A stretch of DNA of 64,000 bases from Escherichia phage Bp4: the sequence record NC_024142.2. The stretch is one strand, 5' to 3'. Position 1 is the first letter of the stretch. Every line of letters starts with the position of its first letter. Below the pieces are notes generated by a model. The model was not told the origin of the DNA and did not search any database. It worked only from the letters and a program-made list of their open reading frames with translations. Position numbers and translations under genes: made by a program. This document shows positions 40,043 to 64,000 of this stretch, piece after piece.

Positions 40043-40845
40043 TAACGTTTACCGAACAGTGATTTACCACTAGCAGGAGTAGTACCAGTGCCAGCACCTG
40101 CACCTGGTTTAGGAGGCAAGCCACCTTTACCATTACCACCAGCAGAACTCTTAGTCTTGTCACGAGTTTTGCCTTTGTTCTTTTCCAGCCATGCTGCATA
40201 GAATACAGCCAGTTCTGGGGTTAGTTCTTTTTCAGCCTTCTCTGCTTCCTGAGCCTCGACGACTGTGACCAGCAGTTCCGGGTGAAACACTTTCTGAATC
40301 TCGTTTACTTCACGAGTTTCGTCAGAGTCTACATAACCGTTGTCGCCTTTAACCTGCTTGTTTTCCAGAACTTTTTCCAGAGCGAAGGTAACAGTCTGGC
40401 CTACCAGGTCAACTGGAACCATGACAGATTTATTAACTTCTGCTTTAGCGTCGTAGTCGTAGACTTTAACAATCTTCTCTTCGAAGTCTGCTTCAGGCAG
40501 TTCAGTACCAGTAGCCATCAGCATCATGTCGTTAATGACAGTGTAGCCAGGCAGGAAGTACTCTTTACCATTTTTCTCGTAAGTCGGCTTGTTGCCTTTA
40601 GCATTACCAGAAGTGAAGTACACCTGAGCACGGAACTCGCCAGCAGGCACGCCATCAGAGTTTTTCAGGTCTTCAATAATTAACTGCATCCAGTCTGCAC
40701 CAGAATCAGCTTTGCCTACGTAAGCTACTTTTACAGTACCAGTGTAGATATCGGTTTCTTTTGCACCGAAGCCACCACCACCCAGAGAGTCTTTAGCAGC
40801 TTCAACGTTTTTGGTTTTTTCTTTCAGATTACTGAACAATGACAT
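40042..40845 (-). CDS. single-stranded DNA-binding protein (N4 SSB-like, by size and position)
   Basis: 267 aa with Gly-rich C-terminal tail, next to resolvase and ATPase. Confidence 0.45.
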   Translation of the reverse strand: MSLFSNLKEKTKNVEAAKDSLGGGGFGAKETDIYTGTVKVAYVGKADSGADWMQLIIEDLKNSDGVPAGEFRAQVYFTSGNAKGNKPTYEKNGKEYFLPGYTVINDMMLMATGTELPEADFEEKIVKVYDYDAKAEVNKSVMVPVDLVGQTVTFALEKVLENKQVKGDNGYVDSDETREVNEIQKVFHPELLVTVVEAQEAEKAEKELTPELAVFYAAWLEKNKGKTRDKTKSSAGGNGKGGLPPKPGAGAGTGTTPASGKSLFGKR

Positions 40846-40884
40846 ATGATTTTCCTAATAAGTGATTAACAACCAGACAAACGC

Positions 40885-41637
40885 TTAAGCGTAGTATTCA
40901 GCCAGGTGGTCTAAGAGTTTCTGGGCATCGTTATCAATGTAAGTCTCGGACTTATCGAACATACCCATAGGAGAACGAAGTCGTTTACCAACAGACTTCT
41001 TGGTTGGACGGGTCTGGAATACATGTTTATAGCCTAAATCACGTTCTTCCTCCGTAATTTCAAGCATCTTGTTTCCATACTTCTCCAGTTCTTTAATGTC
41101 TACACGTTCTGCGTAAACCACTGTAGAGAAGTAGGCTTCAAGCCCGTTATTCTTCAGAGAGCCTTTCACTGGGATGAACGTTTTCATCACACCAGCAGCT
41201 TCATCCAGTTCGTCTTTAGCATGAGCAGTAATGATTACTGGCTTACCAAACTTAACGACTTTTTGTTGCAGCAGTATCTTAAAGAACTGTGCAAAATCCC
41301 CCCATGCCTTTTGCGTGTTTGCAGAAGGCAGAACATACTGGGATTCCAGCATATCCATCATAAAAGTTGCTGAGTCAATGATGATACCATCAACATCATC
41401 TGCCATTTCTCCACCAGGAGATGCAACATCAAATGCTTCCCAGATTTGGTATGGGTCTTCGATGTTGTAGGTATTGAACTTGTTACGGAAAGGTAGACGT
41501 TTACCTGCCTCAGTGTTCAGATAGAGCCAGCGTTCCTGGTTCCTGATGTTACGCAGTGATGCTGATTTACCACTCGCTGAGAATCCTGCAATCAGGATTA
41601 GCTGAGTGTTCATATCATTGGGAATTACTTCGGACAT
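40885..41637 (-). CDS. P-loop ATPase (RecA/Sak4-like core)
   Basis: Walker A LILIAGFSASGKS and Walker B-like IIIDSATFMMD. Confidence 0.55.
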   Translation of the reverse strand: MSEVIPNDMNTQLILIAGFSASGKSASLRNIRNQERWLYLNTEAGKRLPFRNKFNTYNIEDPYQIWEAFDVASPGGEMADDVDGIIIDSATFMMDMLESQYVLPSANTQKAWGDFAQFFKILLQQKVVKFGKPVIITAHAKDELDEAAGVMKTFIPVKGSLKNNGLEAYFSTVVYAERVDIKELEKYGNKMLEITEEERDLGYKHVFQTRPTKKSVGKRLRSPMGMFDKSETYIDNDAQKLLDHLAEYYA

Positions 41638-41693
41638 TATTTTTCCTCATTTAATTTAGGAGTCCTTCAAACCAAAGAAAGACTCCTGTTTGC

Positions 41694-43586
41694 TTATTTG
41701 CCAGCGAAGCGTTTAGCCACGGTGACCATTACGGTTGCATTCAATTCATCATCTGGTAATGGATTAGCCAGTTTCTTATTGAATGAGTGGACGGCTTGCT
41801 GTACTTGGGCAAAATCCCAACCACTGTCAACCAATGCCAGTGCGTACTTAATCATTTGATTATTACGATTACCGGTAGCAATACGACTAGCGAACCAACG
41901 CTCCAGATTATCCAACGACTGTACTTCCTTCATCTGGTTCTGGAACTGCTCGTTCTTACTAGTACGAGGAATAAAGTCACGCACGTCCAACAGATTTGCT
42001 TCAAGATTGTAATGATAGGAACCAGTCTCACAGGACATCCATTTCTTGGCTCGCTGGTTAGCAGATTCATCCGTTTCGAACGGTAGCCAAGACATAACGT
42101 TATTCATAAACTCTTTGTATTCCTCAGTGTCGAGGTGTAACTCATAGTTCATTGGAATAATCAGTCGGAAGCGGTTCTCTTCATCAGAATGACGTTTAGT
42201 GGTATAGGTCATGAACTTATATTCCTTCATCAGTTCATGGCACGTATGCAGTGGTACTCCACCATCACAGTCAATAACAATCATGTTAAATCCTGGAATA
42301 ACGTTCTCTTCAGAACGATGTCCATTCTTCATGTGATGGTTTACCCAGTGCATACCGGGAGCTTGGGTTAATACATGCAACTGGTCGAACGGTACACGTT
42401 CACCAATGTAGTCATAAGCAAAGCTATCACTATATGCCACTATCATCTCATTGATGTCAGTTTCTTTCAGAGTCTCACCACGGAAGAACTCAATACCTTC
42501 ATTAAAAGTCTTCTTAATGATGATGTGCTGTTTGTAGCCCCATGCTGTAGCAAGAGTCATCATCTCATTACGAGCTGCATTGCCACTCTTATAGAATGGC
42601 AATGACTCCACCAAGTCAGCATGAGTTACTTCTTTACCTACAGAAGCAATGTATTTAGCCAGCTTCACATAAGCCTTCTCACGATTGAGGATTGTCTGGA
42701 ATGCTGCTCCAGATTCTTCTACAAGCAGAATTGCTTGTTTAAGGTGAGTCATCTCAATGAATGAACTCTGGTCAACAAACGCCAGTGCTCCTGCCAGTTT
42801 AAGTGCTTTGAAATAACGGTGGGAAATTTCAGCTTTACGAATTTCTTCGTGGTCAGCCATAGCTTCTGCTTGTTTCTCACAATCAATTTTGTAAGCAATC
42901 AGAGCAATACCCACTGCATCTTCCACAACCATCTTAAAACCAAACAGGTTTGGATCAGCCAGACTATGGAAATGGTTAGCCCACTTACCAAGAGTCTGTA
43001 CGTTATCTTGTTTAATCAAGTTACGGTAGATTTCTTCCGGGGTTAGTGTTGCATGTGCTCTTTTGTCTAAGTGACCAGTGGCAAACAGACAGCGACGTGC
43101 ATACCCTATATCAAGAAAGCCATAGAACTGGTCTTCAGTCTGACCACCATCCAGTAGCTTACTTGGTGTACCAAACAGCAGCAGGTTAGTTGGAGTTTTG
43201 CCATCCAATTCTTCACCACGAACGCTTTCAGCAGTATTCTTGGTTAGCTTCTGTTTTACTTTTCCCTGGTCATATAACTCCAGGAACAGGGTTAGTACAT
43301 CCATGTTAGCCAACAGGTTCGAACCAATTTCATCAATCTGAAGATTGATTGAACCACATCCAGCCATTAATAGTTTATGGCGTAGTTGTTTAACTGCTGG
43401 TGGAGTACCTGAGTCAAACGTAAACGGATATGCCCCTGCACGTTTATACTCTGCCTCAACTTTATCAAACTCTTCCTGCTGGTCAGTACCCTGCCGTGCA
43501 GAGCGTTCGTTAGCAATCTTCCATAGACGATCATTTGCAATGACGGGCATGGTGTCTTCCATAAAGCGTTTACGGAAGCCAGTCAT
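41694..43586 (-). CDS. primase-like replication protein (DxD motif)
   Basis: 630 aa, MIVIDCDGG resembles the hhhDhD primase motif; position in the replication module. Confidence 0.4.
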   Translation of the reverse strand: MTGFRKRFMEDTMPVIANDRLWKIANERSARQGTDQQEEFDKVEAEYKRAGAYPFTFDSGTPPAVKQLRHKLLMAGCGSINLQIDEIGSNLLANMDVLTLFLELYDQGKVKQKLTKNTAESVRGEELDGKTPTNLLLFGTPSKLLDGGQTEDQFYGFLDIGYARRCLFATGHLDKRAHATLTPEEIYRNLIKQDNVQTLGKWANHFHSLADPNLFGFKMVVEDAVGIALIAYKIDCEKQAEAMADHEEIRKAEISHRYFKALKLAGALAFVDQSSFIEMTHLKQAILLVEESGAAFQTILNREKAYVKLAKYIASVGKEVTHADLVESLPFYKSGNAARNEMMTLATAWGYKQHIIIKKTFNEGIEFFRGETLKETDINEMIVAYSDSFAYDYIGERVPFDQLHVLTQAPGMHWVNHHMKNGHRSEENVIPGFNMIVIDCDGGVPLHTCHELMKEYKFMTYTTKRHSDEENRFRLIIPMNYELHLDTEEYKEFMNNVMSWLPFETDESANQRAKKWMSCETGSYHYNLEANLLDVRDFIPRTSKNEQFQNQMKEVQSLDNLERWFASRIATGNRNNQMIKYALALVDSGWDFAQVQQAVHSFNKKLANPLPDDELNATVMVTVAKRFAGK

Positions 43587-43846
43587 GAACCCGTCTTCAA
43601 TGATATTACTGAGTGACCTTTACCGAAACCAGATGTAGCCAACGCTATAGCGTAGATGTTTACCGGCAGGTCACCACGATCTTTAGTTACGATGGTTGCA
43701 CCCATGCAGGATGCCATTTTAGCCAAGAAGTAGGCTACTTCGACACGGAAAAATCCCCGGTCATTATTCTGGGTTTTATTGCAGAGCACATCTACGATTT
43801 CTTCAATCGCCGGATGATGCACTACTCCGGTAAGGTCAATACTCAT
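43583..43846 (-). CDS. hypothetical small protein
   Basis: Start at MSIDLTG overlaps the upstream stop; end overlaps the next start. Confidence 0.3.
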   Translation of the reverse strand: MSIDLTGVVHHPAIEEIVDVLCNKTQNNDRGFFRVEVAYFLAKMASCMGATIVTKDRGDLPVNIYAIALATSGFGKGHSVISLKTGS

Positions 43847-44823
43847 GATGGAAAATATCTCTCTCTTTGTTTGCAAATGGACGCGACAGGGCAGTATAGA
43901 CAACGCTTAACCTGCCCCTCCACGACCTTGATAGCACCCTTGCCACCTTTTTCAGCCATGAAGATACGAGCAGATGCCATATCGTCAAATTTTTTGGTAC
44001 TTCTGGCTCCAGGTACATCTACCTTAGAAGCATCAGAGAAGTATTTGAACTGTGGCTCTGTTCGCCACAACTCCTCATCAGTACATTCAGGAATTTCCTC
44101 TTCTGGTGCATTCCAGTACTTCTCAATGAGGTGAATCTTCTCTTCTACCCAACGTTCAGTCTTCTCAACAGATAGCAACGGAATATCCTTATGCATAATA
44201 CGATTAGCAGGATAGTTTGGATTGCTATTAGCCATATGCTTCATGAAGTCAGTGAAGATGTAGTTAATACGGATTACATCCTCGGTAATGATGTCGTTGT
44301 GAATCCAACGGTACAAGCTGCCTTGCATCTTGTGTTCATCATCACGGGAACCAGCAACCCAGGAATAGGTTGAGGTAGACTTAAAGTCCTGCAACAGACC
44401 TTCTGTTACGATGTCGAACTTACCACCGATAGTCCAACCCTTAACTACCCTGGTTCCACGCTGTTCAATGTAGATTGGGATAAGGTCAGGGTTAGCATCA
44501 AAGTCTGCTTTGGTTGGGTTAATAACTACTGCATCAATTACTCGTTGAGGATAACCCAACTTCTTCAATGCAGTCTTATGACCCAGCTTCCAGGCTTTCT
44601 CGATAGAATCATGTAAACCAGTACCCATTGATGTGGAGACGAAATCCATAACATCAATTGACTGATCACTTAAATCTACACGATGCTTCATGACGATTTG
44701 CTTAATGGGCTTAAGCAATGTGGTAACAGACAGATACTTAGGGTTATCTACATAGTCATAATCATCCGTTACAAGCCATACAGCTAGTGCAAGACTAACG
44801 TCGTGTTTGTTGGTAAGTTTCAT
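43843..44823 (-). CDS. PD-(D/E)xK family nuclease with C-terminal Cys cluster
   Basis: GKFDIVTEGLLQDFK (D…E…K arrangement) and C-terminal CLYCPVASIC. Confidence 0.45.
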   Translation of the reverse strand: MKLTNKHDVSLALAVWLVTDDYDYVDNPKYLSVTTLLKPIKQIVMKHRVDLSDQSIDVMDFVSTSMGTGLHDSIEKAWKLGHKTALKKLGYPQRVIDAVVINPTKADFDANPDLIPIYIEQRGTRVVKGWTIGGKFDIVTEGLLQDFKSTSTYSWVAGSRDDEHKMQGSLYRWIHNDIITEDVIRINYIFTDFMKHMANSNPNYPANRIMHKDIPLLSVEKTERWVEEKIHLIEKYWNAPEEEIPECTDEELWRTEPQFKYFSDASKVDVPGARSTKKFDDMASARIFMAEKGGKGAIKVVEGQVKRCLYCPVASICKQRERYFPS

Positions 44824-45317
44824 AACAGTCCCAATTGCTTATTAGTTTTAGCAAACTCACCATAATGAGTTATAGCAGCTTCATCATAGAGAACAGCAGC
44901 TTCTCTTGGGTCATCTGTAAAACCTAATGTAATTGGTTTACTGTTAACCCAAATAGTTGCTCTGTATTTACCTAAATTCTTTGAAAAGGATACCCCCTTA
45001 AATCCAGATGTGTTTGTTTTAGATAAAACAGCACTCTGGTTATTCTGCTTGTGGGTCGCTTCTCTGAGGTTATCTATCCAGTTGTGATGGCGAATATTGT
45101 CCTTATGGTCAATCCTATCCGTAGGCCATACACCGTGCACATAGAACCATGCAAGGATATGCCCATAGTACAACACACTATCTACACGGAGTTGAACGTA
45201 ACCACTCTTCATTAGGTAACCAGATACCTTTCCGGTATTCCTACGAGTAAAAATCCCGGAAATAGGGTCATAACTAACAAGCTGTAAAAGCCTGTCATGG
45301 GCAATCCTCTGTTTCAT
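44820..45317 (-). CDS. HNH homing endonuclease with AP2 DNA-binding domain
   Basis: HNH core RIDHKDNIRHHNWIDNLREATHKQNN, then AP2-like SGFKGVSFSKNLGKYRATIWVNSKPITLGFTDD. Confidence 0.8.
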   Translation of the reverse strand: MKQRIAHDRLLQLVSYDPISGIFTRRNTGKVSGYLMKSGYVQLRVDSVLYYGHILAWFYVHGVWPTDRIDHKDNIRHHNWIDNLREATHKQNNQSAVLSKTNTSGFKGVSFSKNLGKYRATIWVNSKPITLGFTDDPREAAVLYDEAAITHYGEFAKTNKQLGLL

Positions 45318-45388
45318 AATTAGTTACTCGTCATGCAATAGCCATACAGCCAGGGCCAGTGATACATCATGGTTGTTGGTTATCTTCA

Positions 45389-45865
45389 TTAGTAAGTAAT
45401 CCTGTATCTGTGAACCCAGTTCCACTTAATTTCACTTAGCTGATTGAAGTTATACGAGTAAATTTCATCTCGTTCATCTTTATAAACAATCTCAATGAAT
45501 GAAAATTCTTTAGTGAAGTGAGGTTTACCATTGTTTGTATGGTGCCAATAACTACCAACGGTATTTACATTCGTAGCAGGATCCGGAAATAACTCACTAG
45601 CTAACTTCTCCTTAGCAAGAATACGATTAGCATAATGAACCAGCTTCTCTGCATCGTAAACAGCAGTGTTTCCAGGTTTACCATTACCCATACGGGCAGC
45701 AGCATTTCGCCATAGAGCTTTAAAGGCACAACCTTCATCGAAGGTCATGCCCAGTGCTTGGATAATATCCTCACACTCTGCTTGGTATGGCTCTTGCTCT
45801 TTCCGTTGAGGGTGCTTAACTGGTACTACATACCAGTTATTCAATCCACCGGAGAGCTTAGCCAT
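45389..45865 (-). CDS. hypothetical protein
   Basis: 158-aa ORF in the replication module. Confidence 0.45.
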   Translation of the reverse strand: MAKLSGGLNNWYVVPVKHPQRKEQEPYQAECEDIIQALGMTFDEGCAFKALWRNAAARMGNGKPGNTAVYDAEKLVHYANRILAKEKLASELFPDPATNVNTVGSYWHHTNNGKPHFTKEFSFIEIVYKDERDEIYSYNFNQLSEIKWNWVHRYRITY

Positions 45866-46170
45866 TATTTCTCCTTGGGAATCATGTTTGCCTGGAACTC
45901 TGGTTCAGACATCAGACCCAGGTTGCTAAGAGACAGATAAACGATGTCTTTCAAGTCAACTGAAGTGTCGAAACGCTGGTCCAGACTGATTTTCAGAGAG
46001 TGATTGGCACGAGCCAAATCTTTATAGGTCACGTAAGGTTCATCTGTGAGCAACATTGTGTTCATGGTAAGCAGGGAACCATCATCCACTTTAGGGAGTT
46101 GGAAGACTACCTGTGCTGCTACCATCCAATGATATTTTCTGACTACAGTTTCTTTAGTACTTTTGGTCAT
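45865..46170 (-). CDS. hypothetical protein
   Basis: 101-aa ORF, start overlaps upstream stop. Confidence 0.4.
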   Translation of the reverse strand: MTKSTKETVVRKYHWMVAAQVVFQLPKVDDGSLLTMNTMLLTDEPYVTYKDLARANHSLKISLDQRFDTSVDLKDIVYLSLSNLGLMSEPEFQANMIPKEK

Positions 46171-46661
46171 GCGAATGCCTTTTGAATTATTTGATGAACT
46201 TCTTCTGGGGTAGCGTGATTTGGAATTTCAATCTCGTTAGCCCACGTTGGGTAAAACAAGGATAGTTCCCCACCCAAACCAACTTCTGGGTGAGCAATAT
46301 CAGGATGGTCTTGCCAGTTAACGGCTTCAACCAAGTGCTTGTTCGTGAATTGCAAAGTATCCATGTTGTCACGAATCATGAAGTACTGAGCATCATGAAT
46401 ATGAATACTAGGACGAATATCTAACCTGAACTCACTGGCTCTGACTTTACGCATAAACTCTGAACCAGCACGGTTATTTAGTAGACACCAGCTTTGCCCT
46501 AAAGCATTACCAGCAGTTCTGCCTTCTGCTTCTGCTTCATACGGAGTCTTACATGTCCCACGTAATACTTGAGCCAGTAAAGGAGTACGCACTCTCAAAC
46601 CGAATGCGGCAGTAACATAACCAGTTTTGGCAGCTTCGTCTAGCTTAGCCTGAACCCACAT
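46167..46661 (-). CDS. DNA polymerase, family A, C-terminal segment (motif C)
   Basis: Frame continues upstream as …YGLMENCGFSEEKAKTTEKRYHDLYVVSDMWVQ…; contains HIHDAQYF; separated from the middle segment by a T4/A4 indel at 46732-46735. Confidence 0.75.
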   Translation of the reverse strand: MWVQAKLDEAAKTGYVTAAFGLRVRTPLLAQVLRGTCKTPYEAEAEGRTAGNALGQSWCLLNNRAGSEFMRKVRASEFRLDIRPSIHIHDAQYFMIRDNMDTLQFTNKHLVEAVNWQDHPDIAHPEVGLGGELSLFYPTWANEIEIPNHATPEEVHQIIQKAFA

Positions 46662-46669
46662 GTCGCTAA

Positions 46670-47143
46670 CTACATAGAGGTCGTGATAACGTTTCTCTGT
46701 AGTCTTAGCCTTCTCTTCTGAGAAGCCACAGTTTTCATTAAGCCCATATATGTACCACCATAGGTAAGCAGGAAGGTTGGAGCCTTCGAGTCACTACGCA
46801 ATGATTTGTACTTATGCTGAATGGAGTTAATGGATTCTACCGTGTCTTCTATGTCCGGCATCTGCTCACCAAAGTAAGCATATGCACGAAGACTGTGACC
46901 ATCATAACCATCGGTATATACCTTGAGCTTCTGCGGATCTTTAGTAGTTAAAGCTGAGATACGGTCTTCAAGGCTTGCAAAGTCCAGTCCACAAAAGATC
47001 CAACCCGGTGGTGCTTCGAAGCATTTCTTAATCTTCTTGGCGTATTTGGAACCAGATGGAATGGTTTGCAGGTTTGGCTCAGAGGCAGATAATCTACCAG
47101 AAACCGTTCCCCCAAATTGAGGTTGCCGAATAGGTAGTGCCAT
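46670..47143 (-). CDS. DNA polymerase, family A, middle segment (motifs A and B)
   Basis: GRLSASEPNLQTIP and GLDFASLEDRI correspond to Pol A motifs. Confidence 0.75.
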   Translation of the reverse strand: MALPIRQPQFGGTVSGRLSASEPNLQTIPSGSKYAKKIKKCFEAPPGWIFCGLDFASLEDRISALTTKDPQKLKVYTDGYDGHSLRAYAYFGEQMPDIEDTVESINSIQHKYKSLRSDSKAPTFLLTYGGTYMGLMKTVASQKRRLRLQRNVITTSM

Positions 47144-48633
47144 CCATCCGGACCAGGTTGGGCATTTCTAAAGGCCGGGATGAAGCTAGTGATAATCTTA
47201 TCCACAAGCTTATAGTCGATAAGCGCATTGAGCAGTTCCTTAACATCTTCGCTCTGCGTATGTGTACGCAGTGCTTTAATGGTGTCACCATCAGTAGCAG
47301 GTTGCTTACTCTTAGTAAGACCAAGAACCGGTAAGCCAATATAGTCAAATAACAGCTTCTGTAATTGTGGACCGGAGTTAGGATTAAACTCGATGTCACA
47401 ATCAGCAAGCGTTACCTGTTTCTTCTTGAGCTTAGCATTCTTATCATCTACCCATTCCTGACGAAGCATCAGGGTGAAGTTCTTCATGAGCTTAGACTCA
47501 CGAATAGTTTTCAGAGCCTGGTTCCTGTCAGTTTCCATCTCCTTAGCTACTTGGTTAACGGTATCCATATTCATGGGCATACCGGTTAACTGCATCTGGA
47601 TTATGTCTTCACATGCTGGTTTAAAGATGTTGTTGTAAACATCTAATTGGTCATCAGCAATGAGAGTATCCCAGTGCTTCTCATAGGTGTACCAGGTACA
47701 CAAACCGTCAATGAGGTTGTAGCGTAACAGTTGCTCATTAGGAATAAGACGAATGTCTTTAATGTCATCCTGAGCATAGTTACCAGCATACTCCTGAGCC
47801 TGGTCTTTTAGACTAAGGTGATTACCAGCACAACTGTTAGTAGCCAGGTAGGTGATTAACTTAGTACAGTCCCAGTTGCGTAGCATGATTTCCATACCAT
47901 GCAGTAAGCCTTCTGTATCAATCAGGTTATCCATGAATAACTGATAGATAAGCACATACACGTCGTAGCTAATGTTGTGATACATCTGCCGTTGAGTGTA
48001 CTTAATGAAGAACTCACGAAGAAGATTTCGAACAACATCATTTCTGTTGATACGCCCGTATGGTGCTTCAGTAGCTCCAGGAATCGGCTCGTAGTCCACA
48101 TTAAAGGCTATGCCTTGTGTCTTACTCCAACAGAACGTAATTGTTCCTATACCTGCGTTATAGTGCTTTAAACCGAATGCCTCGATGTCTATAGCCAGTG
48201 GCTTATTCATCTCAAGCAGTTGGTCTAGCCAGGCTTTAATCTTCTCTGGGGTATCTGGATAAGCCTCAAACTCAATGATTCCCTGACCTGGTTCTGCATA
48301 CTGCCCACGTATGTGGTTAAGTAATGCATCCATACCCTGAGCAATCTTAGATTTCACTACAGGAGGGTCATAAAAGACCTGTCTGTAGCTAGGTGCATAG
48401 ATAACCTTCTGCTTACCCCATACTGAATCACAAACGTAGCCGAGGTTAGCCTCTGCTTTTGCTTCTTTAGTCAGTATTTTGAAGTAGTCAGAATCGGTAC
48501 AGATAATGTATTGAGTCTCTGCATCGTCCAGTACTTGTTGCAACTCCTGCTGTATGAACTCCTTAATCTCCCTTGCAGGAGTCTTCTTCTTGCCGGGGGC
48601 AGAATGAAGTTCGATGAAGATGAAATCTTCCAT
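46948..48633 (-). CDS. DNA polymerase, family A, N-terminal segment with 3'-5' exonuclease domain
   Basis: Exo I-like LAIDIEAFGL; true frame ends near 47110, where a C5/G5 run shifts into the middle segment. Confidence 0.8.
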   Translation of the reverse strand: MEDFIFIELHSAPGKKKTPAREIKEFIQQELQQVLDDAETQYIICTDSDYFKILTKEAKAEANLGYVCDSVWGKQKVIYAPSYRQVFYDPPVVKSKIAQGMDALLNHIRGQYAEPGQGIIEFEAYPDTPEKIKAWLDQLLEMNKPLAIDIEAFGLKHYNAGIGTITFCWSKTQGIAFNVDYEPIPGATEAPYGRINRNDVVRNLLREFFIKYTQRQMYHNISYDVYVLIYQLFMDNLIDTEGLLHGMEIMLRNWDCTKLITYLATNSCAGNHLSLKDQAQEYAGNYAQDDIKDIRLIPNEQLLRYNLIDGLCTWYTYEKHWDTLIADDQLDVYNNIFKPACEDIIQMQLTGMPMNMDTVNQVAKEMETDRNQALKTIRESKLMKNFTLMLRQEWVDDKNAKLKKKQVTLADCDIEFNPNSGPQLQKLLFDYIGLPVLGLTKSKQPATDGDTIKALRTHTQSEDVKELLNALIDYKLVDKIITSFIPAFRNAQPGPDGWHYLFGNLNLGERFLVDYLPLSQTCKPFHLVPNTPRRLRNASKHHRVGSFVDWTLQALKTVSQL

Positions 48634-48705
48634 GCTTAGGTCATTAGGCAGCAGGTAGGTTTAATCATCTCCTCCCTTCGGATTTGATGACCGAGGATAG
48701 CAATA

Positions 48706-48723
48706 GGATACTTACCCGTATCC
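48706..48723. promoter_or_regulatory. hairpin in the DNA polymerase upstream region
   Basis: GGATAC-TTACCC-GTATCC in the 120-nt gap upstream of the pol start. Confidence 0.3.
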
Positions 48724-48752
48724 TGAGAGGTGATGTAACGCATAGCCTTACC

Positions 48753-49283
48753 TTAGAAAATCAGATGGGAAGCTGCATAGTACTCAATAGAGGGAAGAAT
48801 CTTCTCATACTGTTTTATTGCCATAGGATCACCAGCAAGTGTCCAGGCTGCTTCACGAGTACGTGGCAGTTCCTTGTACTTACCAGTCTGGTCCTGGGCT
48901 ACCAGGCATTCAGGTAAAGCATCACGTACATCCTGATAGGACATACAACCACGAACCAGGCGATATACAGTCTGGTTCACAAGGTGTACTTCCATAATCA
49001 GGCGACTGGAGGCTTTCAGATACTTGTCCATTGCAGGCCAAAGTTCTGGATTAAGTGTTAATCGTTCACCGTAGGTTGGAGGTCTGGCAGCATTAGAACG
49101 CTGATAGAACTCCCCTTGATAAAGAAATCCAGCCGATATATCAATACCATTGATACGGTCGTTCTTATCAATGATACCGTTTAACACACTATCAAGACGA
49201 ACCAGTTCTGCTAAGAACAGGTGTTTGACTATCTCACTGCTATTGGCAACCTGACCAATAGTCGCTGAACCAATCTGAGGCAT
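48753..49283 (-). CDS. hypothetical protein
   Basis: 176-aa ORF between helicase and polymerase. Confidence 0.45.
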   Translation of the reverse strand: MPQIGSATIGQVANSSEIVKHLFLAELVRLDSVLNGIIDKNDRINGIDISAGFLYQGEFYQRSNAARPPTYGERLTLNPELWPAMDKYLKASSRLIMEVHLVNQTVYRLVRGCMSYQDVRDALPECLVAQDQTGKYKELPRTREAAWTLAGDPMAIKQYEKILPSIEYYAASHLIF

Positions 49284-49293
49284 ATATCCTCCC

Positions 49294-50604
49294 TTAGAAA
49301 GTTAGACCACCATACTTACTGGCAAGATTGCCATAAAACACTACTCGCTTACGGGCACGAGACACAGCGACGTAAAGCAGACGAGCAACCATATCCGGTT
49401 GGCGACAGCTTGAGAGGTCATCTGCATCAATGAAGATTGTGTCGTAAGTAGAGCCTTGTGATTTATGGACAGTACATGCATGAGTAGCACGTAGGTCTGG
49501 AATGGTTTCTTTAAGACGGAAGTAAGGTTCCCAGTTCTTCTCCTTACCTAGCCACTTAACCAAACGGTTGAAGTATTCTGGGTCGGTAGGTACTGGGACT
49601 TCACTTACAATACCACCATAGCCAAGGTCCAGAGTACTATCACGGACTTCCAGTTCCAGGTCACCTGTAACCTGAATCATGCGAGTACTGCTATCCTGGT
49701 CGATGAGTTTTACGTCTTGCTCGATAGACAGACGGTCTTCCACACCTAAGCGAACAGCAGAGTTAGAAACTAACTGTTCACCGATGGAGTACTCACCCAC
49801 GTAACCATTGGCTTCACGAATGTAGTTATTGTAATTAATAACCTGGTCATTTGTGTAAGCAACAATACGGCTGTTGGTGGGTTGAGTGAAGTGACTGAGA
49901 ACCAGTTTCTCCATCTCTTCTCCCTGTACCCAGTCAATAATGCCTGGAATACACTTAATAGGCAGGAAACCTGTCTTACCTTCCACCGTATCACGTAATT
50001 GTTGGTTCAATGCTTTGAGTTCAGGTACATCGGTACGCATCTGTTCAGTCAGATAGTGTGTTGGGATATTACCTGCATATACCGGAGACTTATTCTCTTT
50101 AACAGGCAGAAGCTGAGAAGCATCACCTACGAATACCAGCTTACACTGGTGAGTACCTTCACGAGCATACTTAAGTAACTGACGGTCAATCATGGATGCT
50201 TCGTCTACGAAGATGATTTTGTTCTTCTTAATATTGAATGATTTGGACGGTACGACATTAGCCTCACCAGTCTTAAAGTCATTCTTAACAATCAATCCCT
50301 GGAAGGAATGATAGGTAGATGTTGGACGCCCAGTAGCTTGAGCCAGAACTTCAGCAGCCTTGTTCGTGGTCGCAGTCATAACGACTTCGTTATACAGGGG
50401 CTTGGTTCCCATAAGGGAGCAAGTTTCCATATATGCAGGCATAGTGTCATCAATGAGGTGCGACATCAGGAATGTCTTGCCAGTTCCCCCTGGGCCACTA
50501 ATATTGAATTCGGTAGCATTAGGGTCGAGCAGGAAGTCGAAGAACTTCTTCGCAACCGCTTCTTGCCCCTTGTTCAGTGGGGCTTTGGTAGGTTTGGAAA
50601 ACAT
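49294..50604 (-). CDS. Dda/RecD-like SF1 DNA helicase
   Basis: Walker A GPGGTGKT, Walker B FVDEASM, HKSQGST and VAVSRAR. Confidence 0.8.
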   Translation of the reverse strand: MFSKPTKAPLNKGQEAVAKKFFDFLLDPNATEFNISGPGGTGKTFLMSHLIDDTMPAYMETCSLMGTKPLYNEVVMTATTNKAAEVLAQATGRPTSTYHSFQGLIVKNDFKTGEANVVPSKSFNIKKNKIIFVDEASMIDRQLLKYAREGTHQCKLVFVGDASQLLPVKENKSPVYAGNIPTHYLTEQMRTDVPELKALNQQLRDTVEGKTGFLPIKCIPGIIDWVQGEEMEKLVLSHFTQPTNSRIVAYTNDQVINYNNYIREANGYVGEYSIGEQLVSNSAVRLGVEDRLSIEQDVKLIDQDSSTRMIQVTGDLELEVRDSTLDLGYGGIVSEVPVPTDPEYFNRLVKWLGKEKNWEPYFRLKETIPDLRATHACTVHKSQGSTYDTIFIDADDLSSCRQPDMVARLLYVAVSRARKRVVFYGNLASKYGGLTF

Positions 50605-58946: not shown

Positions 58947-59059
58947 TGGGTTAGGAGATGGATAAGCAATGAGCTGGAAGCAACTTCCACAAGCATCACT
59001 ATGTAATGATGCTTAGGTTAGTTACTCTGCTTTACTACCACCGTTGGTTTGTACAACAG

Positions 59060-59263
59060 TTACATTTGTAACCTGGTTCTGCCTTTGTTGGACAGTGACC
59101 AAATCAGTGCTACTACCCAGAATACCAGTGACCAGCCTAATACTATATTAAGCACGCCAATGCCCCACTTAGAGGCATGGCCTCGTGCAAAAGCAATGAT
59201 AGTAGGGATAAGGTATACAGCTAATATAAACAACATAACAAGGATTGCTGCTAAAGATTCCAT
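59060..59263 (-). CDS. superinfection immunity (Imm-like) small membrane protein
   Basis: YLIPTIIAFARGH … VLNIVLGWSLVFWVVALIWS matches the Imm-type two-TM motif; likely start at MESLAAIL. Confidence 0.55.
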   Translation of the reverse strand: MESLAAILVMLFILAVYLIPTIIAFARGHASKWGIGVLNIVLGWSLVFWVVALIWSLSNKGRTRLQM

Positions 59264-59336
59264 GATGGTTCCTATGTGGGGTTGAGTTAGTTTCTTCACA
59301 AATAGCCCAACAATGCTGGGCTATTTAGGCAGCTAC

Positions 59337-59546
59337 TTACTCAGCGTCTTTGCTTGCAGGAGCAAGAGCTTTCTTCAGGTAATTACGTACTGAACGATAG
59401 GTTTCTTTGGTATCCATAGTACTATCATTTACGAATGTGATACGTGCACAATCAGACAGTGGAATTTGTTCCACTCCTACTACATTTGCAGCATTAATGG
59501 TTACACGTACATCTGAGGTTGCATGAGTTACTTGAAATACTGACAT
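59337..59546 (-). CDS. hypothetical small protein
   Basis: 69-aa ORF. Confidence 0.4.
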   Translation of the reverse strand: MSVFQVTHATSDVRVTINAANVVGVEQIPLSDCARITFVNDSTMDTKETYRSVRNYLKKALAPASKDAE

Positions 59547-59555
59547 GTTGTTTCC

Positions 59556-60062
59556 TTATTTACTGCTTCTTGCAGCTACTGGTTTGTTTTCCTGGTTCTG
59601 ATACTTGCCATTGTAATTAGCAGGTTCCTGAACCAGATGAAATAATACTTGAGCTATCCCAGAACCAGCCGGGATATGCAGTTTCTTACGACCGTGATAG
59701 ACAAGTTCGAGGGTAAGATACCCTTTCCATCCTGGTTCTATTACGGTATTGAACACAGATAATGCACGTCTTGCCCAGGTAGACTTATCGTGAACGATGG
59801 CTACACAGGAAGGAGACATGTTGAACTTCTCAATTGCTGAAGCCAATGTGAACTTACCGAGATGGCGTGATACTTGATTTCCATCAACGACTTTCACCAT
59901 TGGAATCAACCCAAATAAGCGATAGAAGGTAATATCTTGTTTGATACGAATATCATAACCAGCTTCACCCAATCCATAGCTTACACCATGCTCGGATACC
60001 TTACGGTCTGGGACATCCAGCAACTGAGATGAACGATAAAGAGAATTACCATTAACAACCAT
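59556..60062 (-). CDS. dcd: dCTP deaminase (Dcd/dUTPase superfamily)
   Basis: GYDIRI and STWARRALSVFNTVIEPGWKGYLTLELVYHG … AQVLF parallel E. coli Dcd motifs. Confidence 0.7.
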   Translation of the reverse strand: MVVNGNSLYRSSQLLDVPDRKVSEHGVSYGLGEAGYDIRIKQDITFYRLFGLIPMVKVVDGNQVSRHLGKFTLASAIEKFNMSPSCVAIVHDKSTWARRALSVFNTVIEPGWKGYLTLELVYHGRKKLHIPAGSGIAQVLFHLVQEPANYNGKYQNQENKPVAARSSK

Positions 60063-60580
60063 TATTTCATTCCTTTAGGGATATGAACTACCTCCCCAAA
60101 AGGTACGGTAGCATTAGGATTATTCAGAACACACCAGATGATAGGAATATCAAATGGTAATTCTTTCATTGGGCGAACATACATATCGGAGAATATGATT
60201 GCAGCGGTTGGCTTATTCTTAATAATCCAATCACGTACTGGTTCAAGGCTTGTACCACCACGACCAGTAATCTTAATCTCTTCAAAAGTATCTTCTTCAG
60301 TGATGTCTATTTCTTCCTGGATAATATCGTCGAAGGTAATTAGTGACATCTTCTTAGGATTGAACTGACTTTTAACGTAGGCGACTTCTGAGTTAAAACG
60401 CAGAGAGTCAGCACTACTAATAGAACCAGATACATCCTCAAAGTAGGCTAAGTGACGTAGACGTCCTTCATCATCTTCTAAGGAAGGTAGATAGATGTCA
60501 GTGTAACGACGGTTGGGTCTGGCCCACGTATAATGTGTGTCATCAATGTCGGTAAAAAGTTCATCAGAACTTCCTGCCAT
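60062..60580 (-). CDS. vWA-domain protein, C-terminal segment
   Basis: MIDAS-like DVSGSIS…TGRGGTS; upstream part of the gene lies in other frames. Confidence 0.55.
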   Translation of the reverse strand: MAGSSDELFTDIDDTHYTWARPNRRYTDIYLPSLEDDEGRLRHLAYFEDVSGSISSADSLRFNSEVAYVKSQFNPKKMSLITFDDIIQEEIDITEEDTFEEIKITGRGGTSLEPVRDWIIKNKPTAAIIFSDMYVRPMKELPFDIPIIWCVLNNPNATVPFGEVVHIPKGMK

Positions 60581-60675
60581 GGAACCACTGGTTTAAGGAA
60601 TTGGGTAATAACCTCTTCCATACGACCAGCACCTTTACCAGGCATCTGTCCACCAGCCATTTTCTGGCTCTGCAT
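60478..60675 (-). CDS. vWA-domain protein, middle segment (frame-shifted)
   Basis: Frame open upstream: HFGQSQGAVVNNVVRAMQSQKMAGGQMPGKGAGRMEEVITQF. Confidence 0.45.
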   Translation of the reverse strand: MQSQKMAGGQMPGKGAGRMEEVITQFLKPVVPWQEVLMNFLPTLMTHIIRGPDPTVVTLTSIYLP

Positions 60676-61234
60676 TGCACGTACTACGTTGTTGACAACA
60701 GCACCCTGGGACTGCCCGAAGTGGGGATTTCATGTCGCCAGCAAGACCTGCTCCAGCACCCCCTGACGGCTTCTGCCTTTTCTGAGGGTTCTTCATCAGG
60801 TCATCGTAGATGTCTTCTTCGACCCATCCTTTATATTGAGGGTCTTTGCAAATGCCTTCATCAATGCCAGTGAACTTGTAACCATCTTCTTCTAACTGAA
60901 GGTTAATGAAGTGGTCACAAGCCTGGTTCCAGACTTCTGGGTCACGGCTTCCACGTCGGATGTCGTGTAGATATGCCACATGCCATAATTCATGCATAAG
61001 CACTGTTTCTCTTACATCTGGACACATCCAGATAAAGAAATCTGGGTTGAAATGGAGTTCTATCCCATCAGTACATGCAGTGGGACAATCCTCACGTTTC
61101 CATGAGAATTTAAGACTACACAGTAATGAACCAAAGAAGGCTGCGCTGCGACCTAAAAAAGCCTGCGCTTGGATTCTATCGTACTCCCTCATTAGCTGCT
61201 CATCTGTGAGACTATGCGTAGGTATACTGTTCAT
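60635..61234 (-). CDS. vWA-domain protein, N-terminal metallopeptidase-like segment
   Basis: HELWHVAYLH motif; C-terminal ~30 residues Cys-rich out-of-frame; removing one C from the CCCC run (plus GGGG 60723-60726) restores the frame. Confidence 0.55.
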   Translation of the reverse strand: MNSIPTHSLTDEQLMREYDRIQAQAFLGRSAAFFGSLLCSLKFSWKREDCPTACTDGIELHFNPDFFIWMCPDVRETVLMHELWHVAYLHDIRRGSRDPEVWNQACDHFINLQLEEDGYKFTGIDEGICKDPQYKGWVEEDIYDDLMKNPQKRQKPSGGAGAGLAGDMKSPLRAVPGCCCQQRSTCNAEPENGWWTDAW

Positions 61235-61566
61235 TAGGGTGCTCCATGATTGGGGTGATAGCCATACAGTTTTTCAGCCGCTTTTCTGGCGTCTATGGCA
61301 TCTTGCTTGTCTGCAAAAGTGCCCAAACTTACCAGACGTGTTCCATCAGATATAGCTGCATACCAGATGGAATCACGCTTGTGCCAGTACACACCAGTAA
61401 CACCACTGGAATTAGTTACCCGTTTCTTTTGGTTTCTGGTGTTAGTTCTGCTGTCTACTAATCTAAAGTTACTTAGAAGGTTATTAACCCTATTGTGGTC
61501 TAGGTGATCAATCTGCATACCTTTCGGGATAGGTCCATTGTGCATTTCCCATATGACACGGTGCAC
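61234..61566 (-). CDS. HNH homing endonuclease with AP2 domain (annotated ORF is the 3' two-thirds; gene likely 61234..61713)
   Basis: IDHLDHNRVNN HNH core and SGVTGVYWHKRDSIWYAAISDG AP2-like; the N-terminus (MNWNDILVYINGELFW) lies in another frame, rejoined by adding one T to the T5 run at 61628-61632. Confidence 0.75.
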   Translation of the reverse strand: MHRVIWEMHNGPIPKGMQIDHLDHNRVNNLLSNFRLVDSRTNTRNQKKRVTNSSGVTGVYWHKRDSIWYAAISDGTRLVSLGTFADKQDAIDARKAAEKLYGYHPNHGAP

Positions 61567-61719
61567 TTTGTAACTTTTGCCCTTATAGTTGAAGCATAAA
61601 TAACCATCGCTATTTAGATTACCTACCTTTTTCCAGCAATGCCTCTGGAGGCTACTGTAACTTTCCAGAATAGCTCCCCATTTATGTAAACGAGTATGTC
61701 ATTCCAGTTCATGTTGTGA

Positions 61720-62220
61720 TTACCCGTGAATGTAGCGAGAGATATTAGCAGCAGCCTTACGCCATTCAGGGGTAGCCTGAAGATCTGGTAATGCATTGCC
61801 TACTGTACGGAAGTACAGAATCTTATGGGTGAACGTTTTAAAGCGTTCAATATACTGAAGAACATCAGCAAAGTTTTCTTCAGTAGTTTTGTTAGCCAGA
61901 TGGTTAACGGTAGCCCAACACAGGTTGTTATCTTCTGGTAGTGCACAACCCATAGGGTCTTTGACTACTTTTTCAATCGTAATGATACGATTGTATACCT
62001 GAGTGAACTGAACAAACTCTGTAGCCTTACCAGCAGTAACGTGACCTGAATAGTAGATAGAATCTTCATCAGGAAGAGCACCTTCTGGTAAGTTCTTGAG
62101 GTCTTTATTAACAAAGTCCCAAGTACGAGGGCAACAGAACGTTTTGTTCTTATGTGCTGGGTCGAAGTCATGCAGATAACCAGGGTTAGCATGTAAGAAT
62201 GCAACCAGACGTTCATCCAT
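61720..62220 (-). CDS. MoxR-like AAA+ ATPase, C-terminal segment
   Basis: In-frame continuation of the upstream ATPase after a 1-nt frameshift near 62225-62245. Confidence 0.55.
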   Translation of the reverse strand: MDERLVAFLHANPGYLHDFDPAHKNKTFCCPRTWDFVNKDLKNLPEGALPDEDSIYYSGHVTAGKATEFVQFTQVYNRIITIEKVVKDPMGCALPEDNNLCWATVNHLANKTTEENFADVLQYIERFKTFTHKILYFRTVGNALPDLQATPEWRKAAANISRYIHG

Positions 62221-62771
62221 TGCTGAGGAATCATTACATCTTCAACAAAGATGTCGAAGTTAAGTTCCATTTCAAAGTGAACCACACGAGACTGCATTGC
62301 AGTACCCAGTGGGTTAACAATGGCACGGTCAGTAGCTTTGTTACCAGCACAGACAATCATCACATTAGGATGAAGTTTTTTCTGACCAGTCATACGGTCT
62401 AGAATCAGTTTATATGCAGCAGCTACTACTTCTTTCTTAGCTGAGTTGAACTCATCAAGGAATAAGAGCCAGCCATTATACCCTTCTGGTAATTCATCTC
62501 CCTCAATTGGGAATAAGTCAGCGAATGGAATAAACTCTGCACGGTCACCATTACGGAATGGTAAGCCAGAAAGGTCTTCCGGGGCAGAAGTTGACAGACG
62601 ATGGTCTATCAACTTCATACCAAATTCTTCTGCAATAGAACGAATGATTGCAGATTTACCCATGCCAGGTGATGAAGTCAGGAACGGTACGTTACCTGCT
62701 TTCAAAGCACGGATAATAAAGTTACGAGCTTGACGTGAATTACATACGGTCAAGGAGTCAATGCTTGCCAT
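61965..62771 (-). CDS. MoxR-like AAA+ ATPase, N-terminal segment
   Basis: Walker A SSPGMGKS, Walker B LLFLDEFNSA; last ~80 residues are out-of-frame read-through. Confidence 0.65.
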   Translation of the reverse strand: MASIDSLTVCNSRQARNFIIRALKAGNVPFLTSSPGMGKSAIIRSIAEEFGMKLIDHRLSTSAPEDLSGLPFRNGDRAEFIPFADLFPIEGDELPEGYNGWLLFLDEFNSAKKEVVAAAYKLILDRMTGQKKLHPNVMIVCAGNKATDRAIVNPLGTAMQSRVVHFEMELNFDIFVEDVMIPQQWMNVWLHSYMLTLVICMTSTQHIRTKRSVALVLGTLLIKTSRTYQKVLFLMKILSTIQVTLLLVRLQSLFSSLRYTIVSLRLKK

Positions 62772-62805
62772 TTACTTACTCTCCTAAAGCTAATGGAATT
62801 ACTGA

Positions 62806-63969: not shown

Positions 63970-64000
63970 TTCCTGGCTCCAGATGTAGAAAACCCAGTCA

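What the first reader, a model, noticed from the sequence alone, without database searches (positions are those of the whole stretch)
44820..45317. Free-standing HNH-AP2 homing endonuclease in the replication module
A complete HNH plus AP2 gene lies between the PD-(D/E)xK nuclease and the next gene, overlapping the upstream stop by 4 nt. With the second copy at 61234..61713 this indicates active homing-endonuclease traffic here; such insertions mark variable loci.
Basis: partly seen in the sequence, partly recalled or inferred. Interest (0 to 1): 0.4.

Follow-up and report, generated by a model that had tools for sequence, protein, structure and literature searches.

The report
Homing endonuclease gene beside phage exonuclease
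This is an ordinary, already annotated selfish nuclease gene (HNH-AP2 homing endonuclease) in an N4-like coliphage; the only unreported detail is that it sits inside the start of the neighbouring exonuclease gene and brings its own replacement gene start.

Summary
The ORF at 44820..45317 (minus strand, 165 aa) is real and intact. It has an I-HmuI-like HNH nuclease domain followed by an AP2-fold DNA-binding domain. The window is a Gamaleyavirus (N4-like coliphage), almost identical to phage PD38. The gene equals G7C gp41.1 and is already annotated as an HNH or homing endonuclease in GenBank.

Comparative evidence supports a free-standing homing endonuclease gene (HEG):
- 8 phages in the collection carry it; close relatives lack exactly 566 bp.
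- It is linked to several different upstream gp41 alleles.
- dN/dS is 0.04-0.11.
- Its nearest homologues (54-57% identity) occupy the same gp41|gp42 junction in distant N4-like phages.

The 71-nt "intergenic" gap is not a spacer. It holds the first 21 codons of the ancestral gp42 exonuclease gene as a stub. The working gp42 starts with a recoded 63-nt copy delivered with the HEG, carrying 15 fixed differences that all lie before the stub end.

The "second copy" at 61234 is a different family member (28% identity). It is frameshifted here by a homopolymer deletion that looks like a sequencing error.

Cleavage activity and the target site are inferred, not shown. Interest is low.

The parts
44820..45317 (-). 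HEG open reading frame, 165 aa, HNH-AP2 (equals G7C gp41.1)
   Evidence: The ORF is listed. It is 100% identical at protein level to the PD38 and ECBP1 proteins and intact in all 9 carriers. dN/dS is 0.04-0.11.
45036..45170 (-). HNH_3 nuclease domain (residues 50-94). D70 and H71 are invariant; H53, N79, N83 and N92 are at least 90% conserved among 70 homologues.
   Evidence: Pfam HNH_3 E=2.8e-9. Conservation comes from alignment A1. Foldseek top hit is I-HmuI 1u3e, probability 1.00, rmsd 2.7 over 86 columns.
44865..45008 (-). AP2-fold DNA-binding domain (residues 104-151)
   Evidence: Pfam AP2 scores 19.2 bits, below the gathering score. phmmer finds WRI1 AP2 at E=0.005. Foldseek matches TEM1, ERF1 (rmsd 1.7 over 57 columns, TMt 0.74) and ERF96 AP2 domains.
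45324..45389 (-). Stub: the first 21 codons of the ancestral gp42 gene (MKITNNHDVSLALAVWLLHDE) followed by a TAA stop. Its ATG overlaps the gp41 stop (TAATG). Its stop lies 6 nt before the HEG ATG.
   Evidence: Alignment with HEG-less phages. It differs at 2 of 63 nt from PE007 gp42 and at 21 of 63 nt from the functional 5' end in the same genome. Its polymorphic sites are all at codon position 3 and mostly shared with functional alleles.
44761..45326 (-). The 566-bp unit absent from HEG-less relatives: TAACTAATT, then the HEG ORF, then the 63-nt replacement gp42 5' end
   Evidence: MAFFT places 566 gap columns in PE007 relative to the window. The boundaries were read.
44761..44823 (-). Recoded replacement 5' end of gp42 (MKLTNKHDVSLALAVWLVTDD), co-delivered with the HEG. 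It carries 15 fixed differences from HEG-less alleles.
   Evidence: All fixed differences lie within nt 7-63 of gp42 and none lie after nt 63 in the 90 nt compared.
43843..44823 (-). gp42 exonuclease (PD-(D/E)xK / Cas4-like): the target and host gene
   Evidence: PHROG 2139 'exonuclease' 5.9e-151. Pfam PDDEXK_1 is only weak, E=0.0034 and below cutoff.
45389..45865 (-). gp41 (N4 numbering), the upstream neighbour, with a hypervariable C-terminal half
   Evidence: PHROG 9919. At least 4 different C-terminal alleles are linked to the HEG.
61234..61712 (-). Second, unrelated HNH-AP2 HEG between the ATPase and VWA-like genes. It is frameshifted in this window at about 61627.

Best explanation
This is a free-standing homing endonuclease gene of the HNH-AP2 class, resident in the replication operon of a Gamaleyavirus (N4-like coliphage close to PD38).

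Proposed mechanism, which is inferred rather than shown: during mixed infection with a HEG-less relative, the monomeric enzyme binds the 5' region of the empty gp42 allele through its AP2 domain. The I-HmuI-like HNH domain then nicks or cuts near codon 21/22. Repair copies the 566-bp unit from the HEG-carrying genome.

The left homology arm is gp41 plus the first 63 nt of gp42, which survive as the stub. The right arm is gp42 from codon 22 onward. The unit supplies a recoded 63-nt gp42 start that keeps the exonuclease intact and probably makes the carrier allele a poor substrate.

Expression is probably by translational coupling within the operon. The gp41 stop overlaps the stub ATG. The stub stop lies 6 nt before the HEG ATG. 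The HEG stop overlaps the gp42 ATG.
For: Shown:
- Domain and fold identity.
- Precise 566-bp presence/absence among phages 91-95% identical in this 4.5-kb region.
- Only 11 of 83 related records carry the gene.
- PE007, which lacks the HEG, is 100% identical to the window over 45713..45337, right up to the last 13 nt of the stub.
- The HEG is linked to at least 4 different gp41 C-terminal alleles, at least two of which also occur in HEG-less phages.
- The ORF is intact in all 9 carriers, with dN/dS 0.04-0.11 at dS up to 0.44.
- There are 15 fixed differences between HEG-linked and HEG-less gp42 starts, all within nt 7-63, ending exactly at the stub boundary.
- Stub polymorphisms are all at third codon positions, and 5 of 6 are shared with functional gp42 alleles, as expected if stubs are renewed from recipient genes.
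- The nearest homologues (54-57% identity) sit at the same gp41|gp42 junction in three distant N4-like contigs, and two of them overlap the gp42 ATG.
- There is no intron-like RNA and no promoter or terminator match on the coding strand next to the gene.

The HNH-AP2 class is an established HEG class (Magnani et al. 2004, as cited in PMC10448857).
Against: - No cleavage or homing has been shown for this protein. The target site, and whether it nicks or cuts both strands, are inferred.
- HEG divergence between carriers (dS 0.13-0.44) is similar to that of gp42. Much of the distribution could therefore be vertical descent plus loss or ordinary recombination, rather than recent homing.
- The stub keeps the whole upstream part of the putative target, so immunity of the carrier genome is not explained if recognition lies wholly in nt 1-63.
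- The Uz-1 record carries the HEG together with an ancestral-type sequence across nt 51-72 of gp42. This would argue against a target there, but that record may be a reference-guided consensus.
Confidence: 0.8

Rival explanations
1. It is a domesticated nuclease kept because it benefits the phage. It could act as an accessory to the gp42 exonuclease / Sak4 recombination machinery, or as a weapon that degrades co-infecting relatives. It would no longer spread by homing.
For: Purifying selection is as strong as on the neighbouring gp42 gene. The gene is tightly coupled within the operon by ATGA and TAATG overlaps. The position directly upstream of gp42 is conserved in distant N4-like phages.
Against: It is absent from most Gamaleyaviruses, including PE007, which is 100% identical over 45713..45337 immediately upstream of the insert, so it is dispensable. 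A competition role would use the same cleavage mechanism as homing and does not exclude it.
Confidence: 0.12
2. It is an immobile relic. A single ancient insertion was inherited vertically and lost in many lineages, and the enzyme is no longer active on any natural target.
For: HEG dS is of the same order as gp42 dS between carriers. All carriers share the same junction architecture.
Against: An inactive relic should accumulate frameshifts and nonsynonymous changes. Instead, all 9 ORFs are intact with dN/dS below 0.11. The HEG sits on several flank haplotypes. Stub variation looks imported from functional genes.
Confidence: 0.06
3. It is a packaging-associated HNH endonuclease, the HK97-type terminase cofactor.
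For: Only the HNH domain itself supports this.
Against: It lies in the replication module between gp41 and gp42, not next to a terminase. It is absent from most members of the genus. It also carries an AP2 sequence-reading domain typical of HEGs.
Confidence: 0.01

Closest known systems
G7C gp41.1 / PD38 AXY81331.1 / ECBP1_0048 (GenBank-annotated HNH or homing endonucleases of Gamaleyavirus)
   Same: This is the same gene at the same position, with 97-100% best-segment protein identity by tblastn (ECBP1 100%, G7C 97%).
   Different: Nothing differs in the gene itself. In the three records whose feature tables were fetched (PD38, G7C, ECBP1), no feature is annotated over the stub and nothing marks the replaced gp42 start. 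PD38 and EC1-UPM annotate a shortened 393-nt CDS although the full 498-nt frame is open.
I-HmuI (phage SPO1 intron-encoded HNH homing endonuclease, PDB 1u3e)
   Same: It is the best structural match for the N-terminal two thirds: a beta-hairpin DNA-contact region plus a beta-beta-alpha-metal HNH core. From my own knowledge, I-HmuI is a monomeric strand-specific nickase, which is the basis for expecting a nick here.
   Different: I-HmuI is intron-encoded and ends in a helix-turn-helix domain. This protein is free-standing and ends in an AP2 domain. Sequence identity is only 23%.
HNH-AP2 homing endonucleases of phages, cyanobacteria and ciliates (Magnani et al. 2004); IPA-HNH HEGs of Vibrio phage ICP1 (PMC10448857)
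   Same: They share the same two-domain architecture and the same lifestyle as free-standing HEGs sitting at boundaries of recombination tracts. Here the window switches its closest relative on either side of the HEG sites.
   Different: The ICP1 IPA-HNH domains are too divergent for the Pfam HNH_3 profile, whereas this protein passes HNH_3.
Free-standing HEGs of fungal mitochondria flanked by partial duplications of the host gene (for example atp6 and cob C-terminal duplications, PMC6279837)
   Same: An HEG lies next to a gene, with a leftover partial copy of that gene's end on the other side of the HEG.
   Different: There the 3' end is duplicated and the HEGs are LAGLIDADG or GIY-YIG types. 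Here the 5' end is duplicated, the old copy is a translatable 21-codon stub upstream, and the enzyme is HNH-AP2.

Membership tests
HNH_3 (PF13392), His-Me finger endonucleases | Profile score above Pfam's gathering threshold | tested here: met
   36.9 bits against a cutoff of 24.8, residues 50-94
HNH_3 (PF13392), His-Me finger endonucleases | Catalytic His/Asp/Asn motif residues present | tested here: met
   D70 and H71 are invariant. H53, N79, N83, N92 and N95 are at least 90% conserved among 70 homologues, and all are present in the window protein. The assignment to I-HmuI D74/H75/N96 is from memory and was not tested.
HNH_3 (PF13392), His-Me finger endonucleases | Beta-beta-alpha-metal fold | tested here: met
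   AF2 model pLDDT 95.9. Foldseek top PDB hit is I-HmuI 1u3e, probability 1.00, E=1.1e-3.
HNH_3 (PF13392), His-Me finger endonucleases | Metal-dependent DNA cleavage | not testable with these tools
   Needs an enzyme assay
AP2 DNA-binding domain (PF00847) | Profile score above Pfam's gathering threshold | tested here: not met
   19.2 bits against a cutoff of 33.3. Many homologues do carry a precomputed PF00847 hit.
AP2 DNA-binding domain (PF00847) | Three-stranded sheet packed on one helix, superposable on solved AP2/ERF domains | tested here: met
   Strands 109-112, 117-124 and 127-134 plus helix 137-155. ERF1 1gcc rmsd 1.7 over 57 columns, TMt 0.74; TEM1 and ERF96 also match. phmmer finds WRI1 at E=0.005.
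Free-standing homing endonuclease gene | Own ORF outside any intron or intein | tested here: met
   It has separate start and stop codons. There is no Rfam match at E<=1 in 44300..45900. The host gene gp42 is continuous.
Free-standing homing endonuclease gene | Presence/absence polymorphism at one site with precise boundaries among close relatives | tested here: met
   A 566-bp insert is present in 8 phages plus the window and absent in 9 sampled relatives. Only 11 of 83 records carry it.
Free-standing homing endonuclease gene | Conserved target in empty alleles, altered in carrier alleles | tested here: met
   75 of 90 nt are invariant in HEG-less alleles. There are 15 fixed differences in carriers, all within nt 7-63.
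Free-standing homing endonuclease gene | Distribution incongruent with flanking haplotypes (lateral spread) | tested here: inconclusive
   The HEG is linked to at least 4 gp41 alleles, and stub variants match HEG-less alleles. However, HEG dS is similar to gp42 dS, and general recombination is rampant in this genus.
Free-standing homing endonuclease gene | Site-specific cleavage of the empty allele and super-Mendelian inheritance in crosses | not testable with these tools
   Needs an in vitro cleavage assay and mixed infections
Packaging-associated HNH (HK97-type) | Adjacent to the terminase genes and conserved in all members of the group | tested here: not met
   It lies between gp41 and gp42 of the replication module and is absent from most relatives.

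The most novel reading that the evidence does not exclude
The mobile unit is a self-immunising cassette made of the HEG plus a recoded 63-nt start of its target gene. Each homing event converts the recipient's own first 21 codons of gp42 into an upstream stub. That stub would then serve as the left homology arm and as a short leader ORF that passes ribosomes from gp41 to the HEG. The stub end (gp42 nt 63) would mark the original break site. This would be a way for a HEG to enter a gene pair with overlapping stop and start codons, where no intergenic space exists. I did not find it described for phages: three full-text searches, plus term look-ups inside three of the papers returned, found nothing.
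Probability: 0.35. Interest if true: 0.4.

Novelty: already known. Interest (0 to 1): 0.22.

Why it matters
The finding mainly serves as a clean, well-documented example. It marks a recombination boundary in Gamaleyavirus genomes, which matters for phage taxonomy and for engineering therapeutic N4-like coliphages.

The stub-plus-recoded-start anatomy gives a precise, testable prediction of where the enzyme cuts: the gp42 5' region, around nt 30-70 of the empty allele. It also shows how a HEG can invade translationally coupled genes without killing either one. Neither point changes current understanding of homing endonucleases.

Tried and rejected
- An Rfam scan of 44300..45900 at E<=1 found nothing, so there is no intron or other known RNA.
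- The RNA fold around the HEG start is no more stable than shuffled sequence (z=+0.93), so a hairpin does not appear to sequester the ribosome-binding site.
- The sigma-70 promoter and terminator scan found nothing on the coding strand next to the gene.
- An IMG/VR scan for close relatives returned only ECBP1 and G7C again.
- I looked for the donor of the recoded gp42 start. No record holds a HEG between 60% and 90% identity in the phage collection. The gp42 starts of the three distant HEG-carrying contigs are not obviously closer at nucleotide level. They share WLV-x-D where HEG-less alleles have WLLHDE. The donor remains unidentified.
- The Uz-1 record initially looked like strong evidence of recent transfer, with a roughly 840-nt island of 100% identity around the HEG in a genome 6.6% diverged elsewhere. 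I set it aside. Uz-1 shares every ORF coordinate and homopolymer frameshift with the window and has no indels relative to it, which is the pattern of a reference-guided consensus.
- Literature searches found no description of the stub.

Full report
**Observation**

The minus strand carries a 165-aa ATG-initiated ORF at exactly 44820..45317. Its stop overlaps the start of the next gene downstream (43843..44823) in an ATGA.

Pfam gives HNH_3 above threshold (36.9 bits, residues 50-94). AP2 falls below threshold (19.2 bits, residues 104-151). PHROG 99 'HNH endonuclease' matches at 9e-59.

An AlphaFold2 model built on 70 homologues is very confident (pLDDT 95.9). Foldseek against the PDB returns the HNH homing endonuclease I-HmuI first. 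It then returns the AP2 domains of Arabidopsis TEM1, WRI1, ERF1 and ERF96. phmmer against PDB sequences also finds WRI1 AP2.

In the homologue alignment D70 and H71 are invariant, and H53, N79, N83 and N92 are nearly so. The HNH-plus-AP2 description is therefore correct.

**Where the window comes from**

The region is 99.9% identical to Escherichia phage PD38 (Gamaleyavirus, Schitoviridae, N4-like) and 91-94% identical to ECBP1, G7C, EC1-UPM and others. In N4/G7C numbering the gene is gp41.1. It lies between gp41 (45389..45865) and the gp42 exonuclease. GenBank already calls it 'homing endonuclease' (PD38), 'HNH homing endonuclease' (Uz-1) or 'HNH endonuclease' (G7C, ECBP1).

**Comparative test of mobility**

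tblastn finds the protein at 90% identity or more in only 11 phage records, which correspond to 8 phages: PD38, ECBP1, PW8, Uz-1, EC1-UPM, 24-32N, Mimir124 and G7C. Everything else among 2,869 matching records is below 60%.

Nine sampled relatives lack the gene, and in most of them gp41 abuts gp42 with a 1-nt overlap. These are St11Ph5, PBM-3, PhAPEC5, ZQ2, Moonfish, PE007, ShWW44, HK2 and IME11. The difference is exactly 566 bp.

PE007, which lacks the HEG, is 100% identical to the window from 45713 to 45337, right up to the insert.

Among carriers the HEG is joined to at least four different gp41 C-terminal alleles: window-type, an IME11-like allele in 24-32N, and the Mimir124 and G7C alleles. 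The window-type and IME11-like alleles also occur in HEG-less phages.

All nine carrier ORFs are intact. Pairwise dN/dS is 0.04-0.11 at dS up to 0.44, as constrained as gp42 itself.

The 71 nt between gp41 and the HEG are not spacer. Positions 45389..45327 are the first 63 nt of the ancestral gp42 gene (MKITNNHDVSLALAVWLLHDE). They differ at 2 of 63 nt from the functional gp42 of HEG-less PE007. They are followed by TAA and then CTAATT before the HEG ATG.

The working gp42 downstream of the HEG begins with a different 63 nt (MKLTNKHDVSLALAVWLVTDD). This differs from the stub at 21 of 63 nt. By my own codon-by-codon reading of the sequences, that is ten synonymous codon changes, including a TCA-to-AGT serine switch, and five amino-acid changes.

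Across 7 carrier and 9 empty alleles there are 15 fixed differences. All lie within nt 7-63, and none lie after nt 63 in the 90 nt compared.

The inserted unit is thus TAACTAATT, the HEG, and a recoded gp42 start. It entered at codon 21/22 of gp42, and the old gene start was left behind as a stub.

Two junction variants exist...CATGACGAG|TAACTAATT, and ...CATGGG|TAACTAGTT in EC1-UPM and 24-32N. Both keep the in-frame TAA.

Stub polymorphisms (six within nt 1-57) are all at third codon positions, and five are shared with functional HEG-less alleles. That is what one expects if stubs are renewed from recipients' genes by recombination or homing, rather than decaying as one old pseudogene. This is an inference from few sites.

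**Origin and lineage**

In a search of 5.8 billion proteins the nearest non-Gamaleyavirus homologues are P0002, P0004 and P0005, at 54-57% identity. All three lie at the same gp41|gp42 junction of other N4-like phage contigs (L021, L022, L026). The downstream gene there is a gp42 orthologue (49-55% identity), and in L022 and L026 the upstream gene is a gp41 homologue. Two of them overlap the gp42 ATG in the same ATGA manner, and none has a stub.

Their gp42 proteins start ...AVWLV(D/R)D..., like the recoded start here and unlike the HEG-less ...AVWLLHDE. This fits import of the HEG, with a piece of foreign gp42, from a distant N4-like phage. No actual donor was found.

The next tier of homologues (48-50% identity; P0007, P0013) is the 171-aa HEG at the gp42|gp43 junction. 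PBM-3 and ZQ2 carry a 171-aa HEG at that junction, and PhAPEC5 and EC1-UPM carry HEGs of 190 and 162 aa there. The family has therefore diversified within this module.

**Mechanism (inferred)**

By analogy with I-HmuI I expect a monomer that reads DNA over about 25-30 bp and nicks one strand. That I-HmuI is a monomeric nickase is from my own knowledge. Replication or a second event would turn the nick into a break.

The empty allele contains a GC-rich element (CTGGCCCTGGCTG, gp42 nt 31-43). In the carrier allele this is recoded to CTTGCACTAGCTG. AP2 domains are reported to favour GC-rich sites (PMC10448857).

I propose that the AP2 domain binds there and the HNH domain cuts some 20-30 bp downstream, near nt 63 where the stub ends. 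Repair would use gp41 plus the stub as the left arm and gp42 from nt 64 as the right arm, copying the 566 bp.

There is no promoter or terminator match on the coding strand near the gene and no stable RNA structure at the HEG start. Expression is therefore probably by coupling: gp41 stop/stub ATG (TAATG), stub stop 6 nt before the HEG ATG, and HEG stop/gp42 ATG (ATGA).

Weak points of the model:
- The stub retains the whole upstream half of the putative target.
- HEG divergence among carriers is similar to that of host genes, so much of the pattern may reflect old residence plus ordinary recombination. Recombination is rampant here: the window switches from 100% identity with PE007 upstream of the HEG to 100% identity with ShWW44 from the gp42|gp43 junction onward.

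**The 'second copy'**

The gene at 61234..61712 also has HNH_3 (1.4e-17 when the frame is repaired) and a weak AP2 match. It shares only 28% identity over 120 aa with the first gene.

It is present in only PD38, Uz-1 and the window among 57 related records, and is intact (160 aa) in PD38. In the window a 1-nt deletion in an A-run breaks the frame.

It sits between the ATPase stop and the VWA-like gene ATG (TAATG overlap). Relative to ECBP1, the first ~95 nt of the VWA-like gene are hyperdivergent. This is the same pattern of an HEG followed by a diverged start of the downstream gene, but without a stub.

**Data-quality note**

In the two regions compared with PD38, the differences are almost all 1-nt deletions in homopolymer runs. 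In 40500..50000 there are no substitutions at all; in 59000..64000 there are six. These deletions split the DNA polymerase, primase, VWA-like, ATPase and second HEG genes. They look like sequencing errors.

The Uz-1 GenBank record has identical ORF coordinates and frameshifts, no indels relative to the window and 6.6% substitutions. It has substitution-free islands exactly at the two HEGs. That is consistent with a reference-guided consensus, so I did not rely on Uz-1.

**Comparison with known systems and verdict**

HNH-AP2 HEGs are an established class (Magnani et al. 2004, via PMC10448857). HEG-related indel loci in G7C-like phages have been noted in general terms (bioRxiv 10.1101/542787). 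Leftover partial copies of host genes next to free-standing HEGs are known from fungal mitochondria (PMC6279837).

This gene is already annotated. The finding is correct but ordinary. The only unreported element I found is the stub-plus-recoded-start anatomy and the target prediction it yields.

Noticed in passing
window 43605, 46731, 47108, 48659, 59081, 60553, 60714, 60722, 61627, 62216: In the two regions compared with PD38, all indels are 1-nt deletions in homopolymer runs. There are 0 substitutions in 40500..50000 and 6 in 59000..64000. The deletions split the DNA polymerase (three ORFs, 46167..48633), the primase (41694..43903), the VWA-like gene, the ATPase and the second HEG. They are most likely sequencing errors rather than biology.
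   Followed up: yes
window 40500..50000 and 59000..64000 versus L010/L020 (OP312987.1, phage Uz-1): The Uz-1 record has exactly the same ORF coordinates and frameshifts as the window and no indels relative to it. It has 6.6% substitutions, with substitution-free islands exactly at the two HEGs (45611..44773, and across the second HEG). It also has a hybrid gp42 start. This pattern suggests a reference-guided consensus of a HEG-less phage mapped onto a window-like genome.
   Followed up: partly
L004 3338..3826, L005 3345..3860, L006 3345..3917, L007 3287..3802 (the gp42|gp43 junction; the empty site in the window is at about 43840): Relatives carry a paralogous HEG (162-190 aa) between gp42 and the primase gene; the 171-aa form is 48-50% identical to this one. 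In PBM-3 and ZQ2 it has 4-nt overlaps on both sides and no stub. The window lacks it. Around this site the window's closest relative switches: 100% identity to ShWW44 and 79-90% to PE007.
   Followed up: partly
L006 6593..7123, L008 5876..6406 (DNA polymerase gene; intact site in the window within 46167..48633): PhAPEC5 and Moonfish have a ~670-bp insertion with an HNH gene that splits the DNA polymerase gene. It is annotated as an intron. A bioRxiv paper (10.1101/542787) concludes that a similar insert in phage 10Gb is a non-spliceable mobile sequence that leaves the polymerase as two separate subunits.
   Followed up: no
window 45400..45620 (gp41 C-terminal half): The C-terminal half of gp41 is hypervariable, at 43-80% nucleotide identity between phages that are 91-95% identical across the wider region. 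ZQ2, Moonfish and HK2 have a short 94-aa form. The conserved N-terminal part matches PHROGs annotated as polynucleotide kinase/phosphatase, and the L021 homologue carries Pfam DUF3310.
   Followed up: no
window 61140..61234 (5' end of the VWA-like gene downstream of the second HEG): The first ~95 nt of the VWA-like gene are far more diverged from ECBP1 than the rest of the gene. This resembles a co-conversion tract or immunity recoding next to the second HEG.
   Followed up: partly
L022 3942..4001 and L026 2939..3001: In two distant N4-like contigs, the homologous HEG is preceded by a terminator-like GC-rich hairpin with a T-run. L026 also has an AGGAG ribosome-binding site. The HEG there seems to have its own expression signals, rather than a stub.
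   Followed up: no
L013 179..670 (phage PW8): PW8 has another HNH endonuclease gene next to a truncated Sak4-like gene. This is a further HEG site in the same replication module.
   Followed up: no
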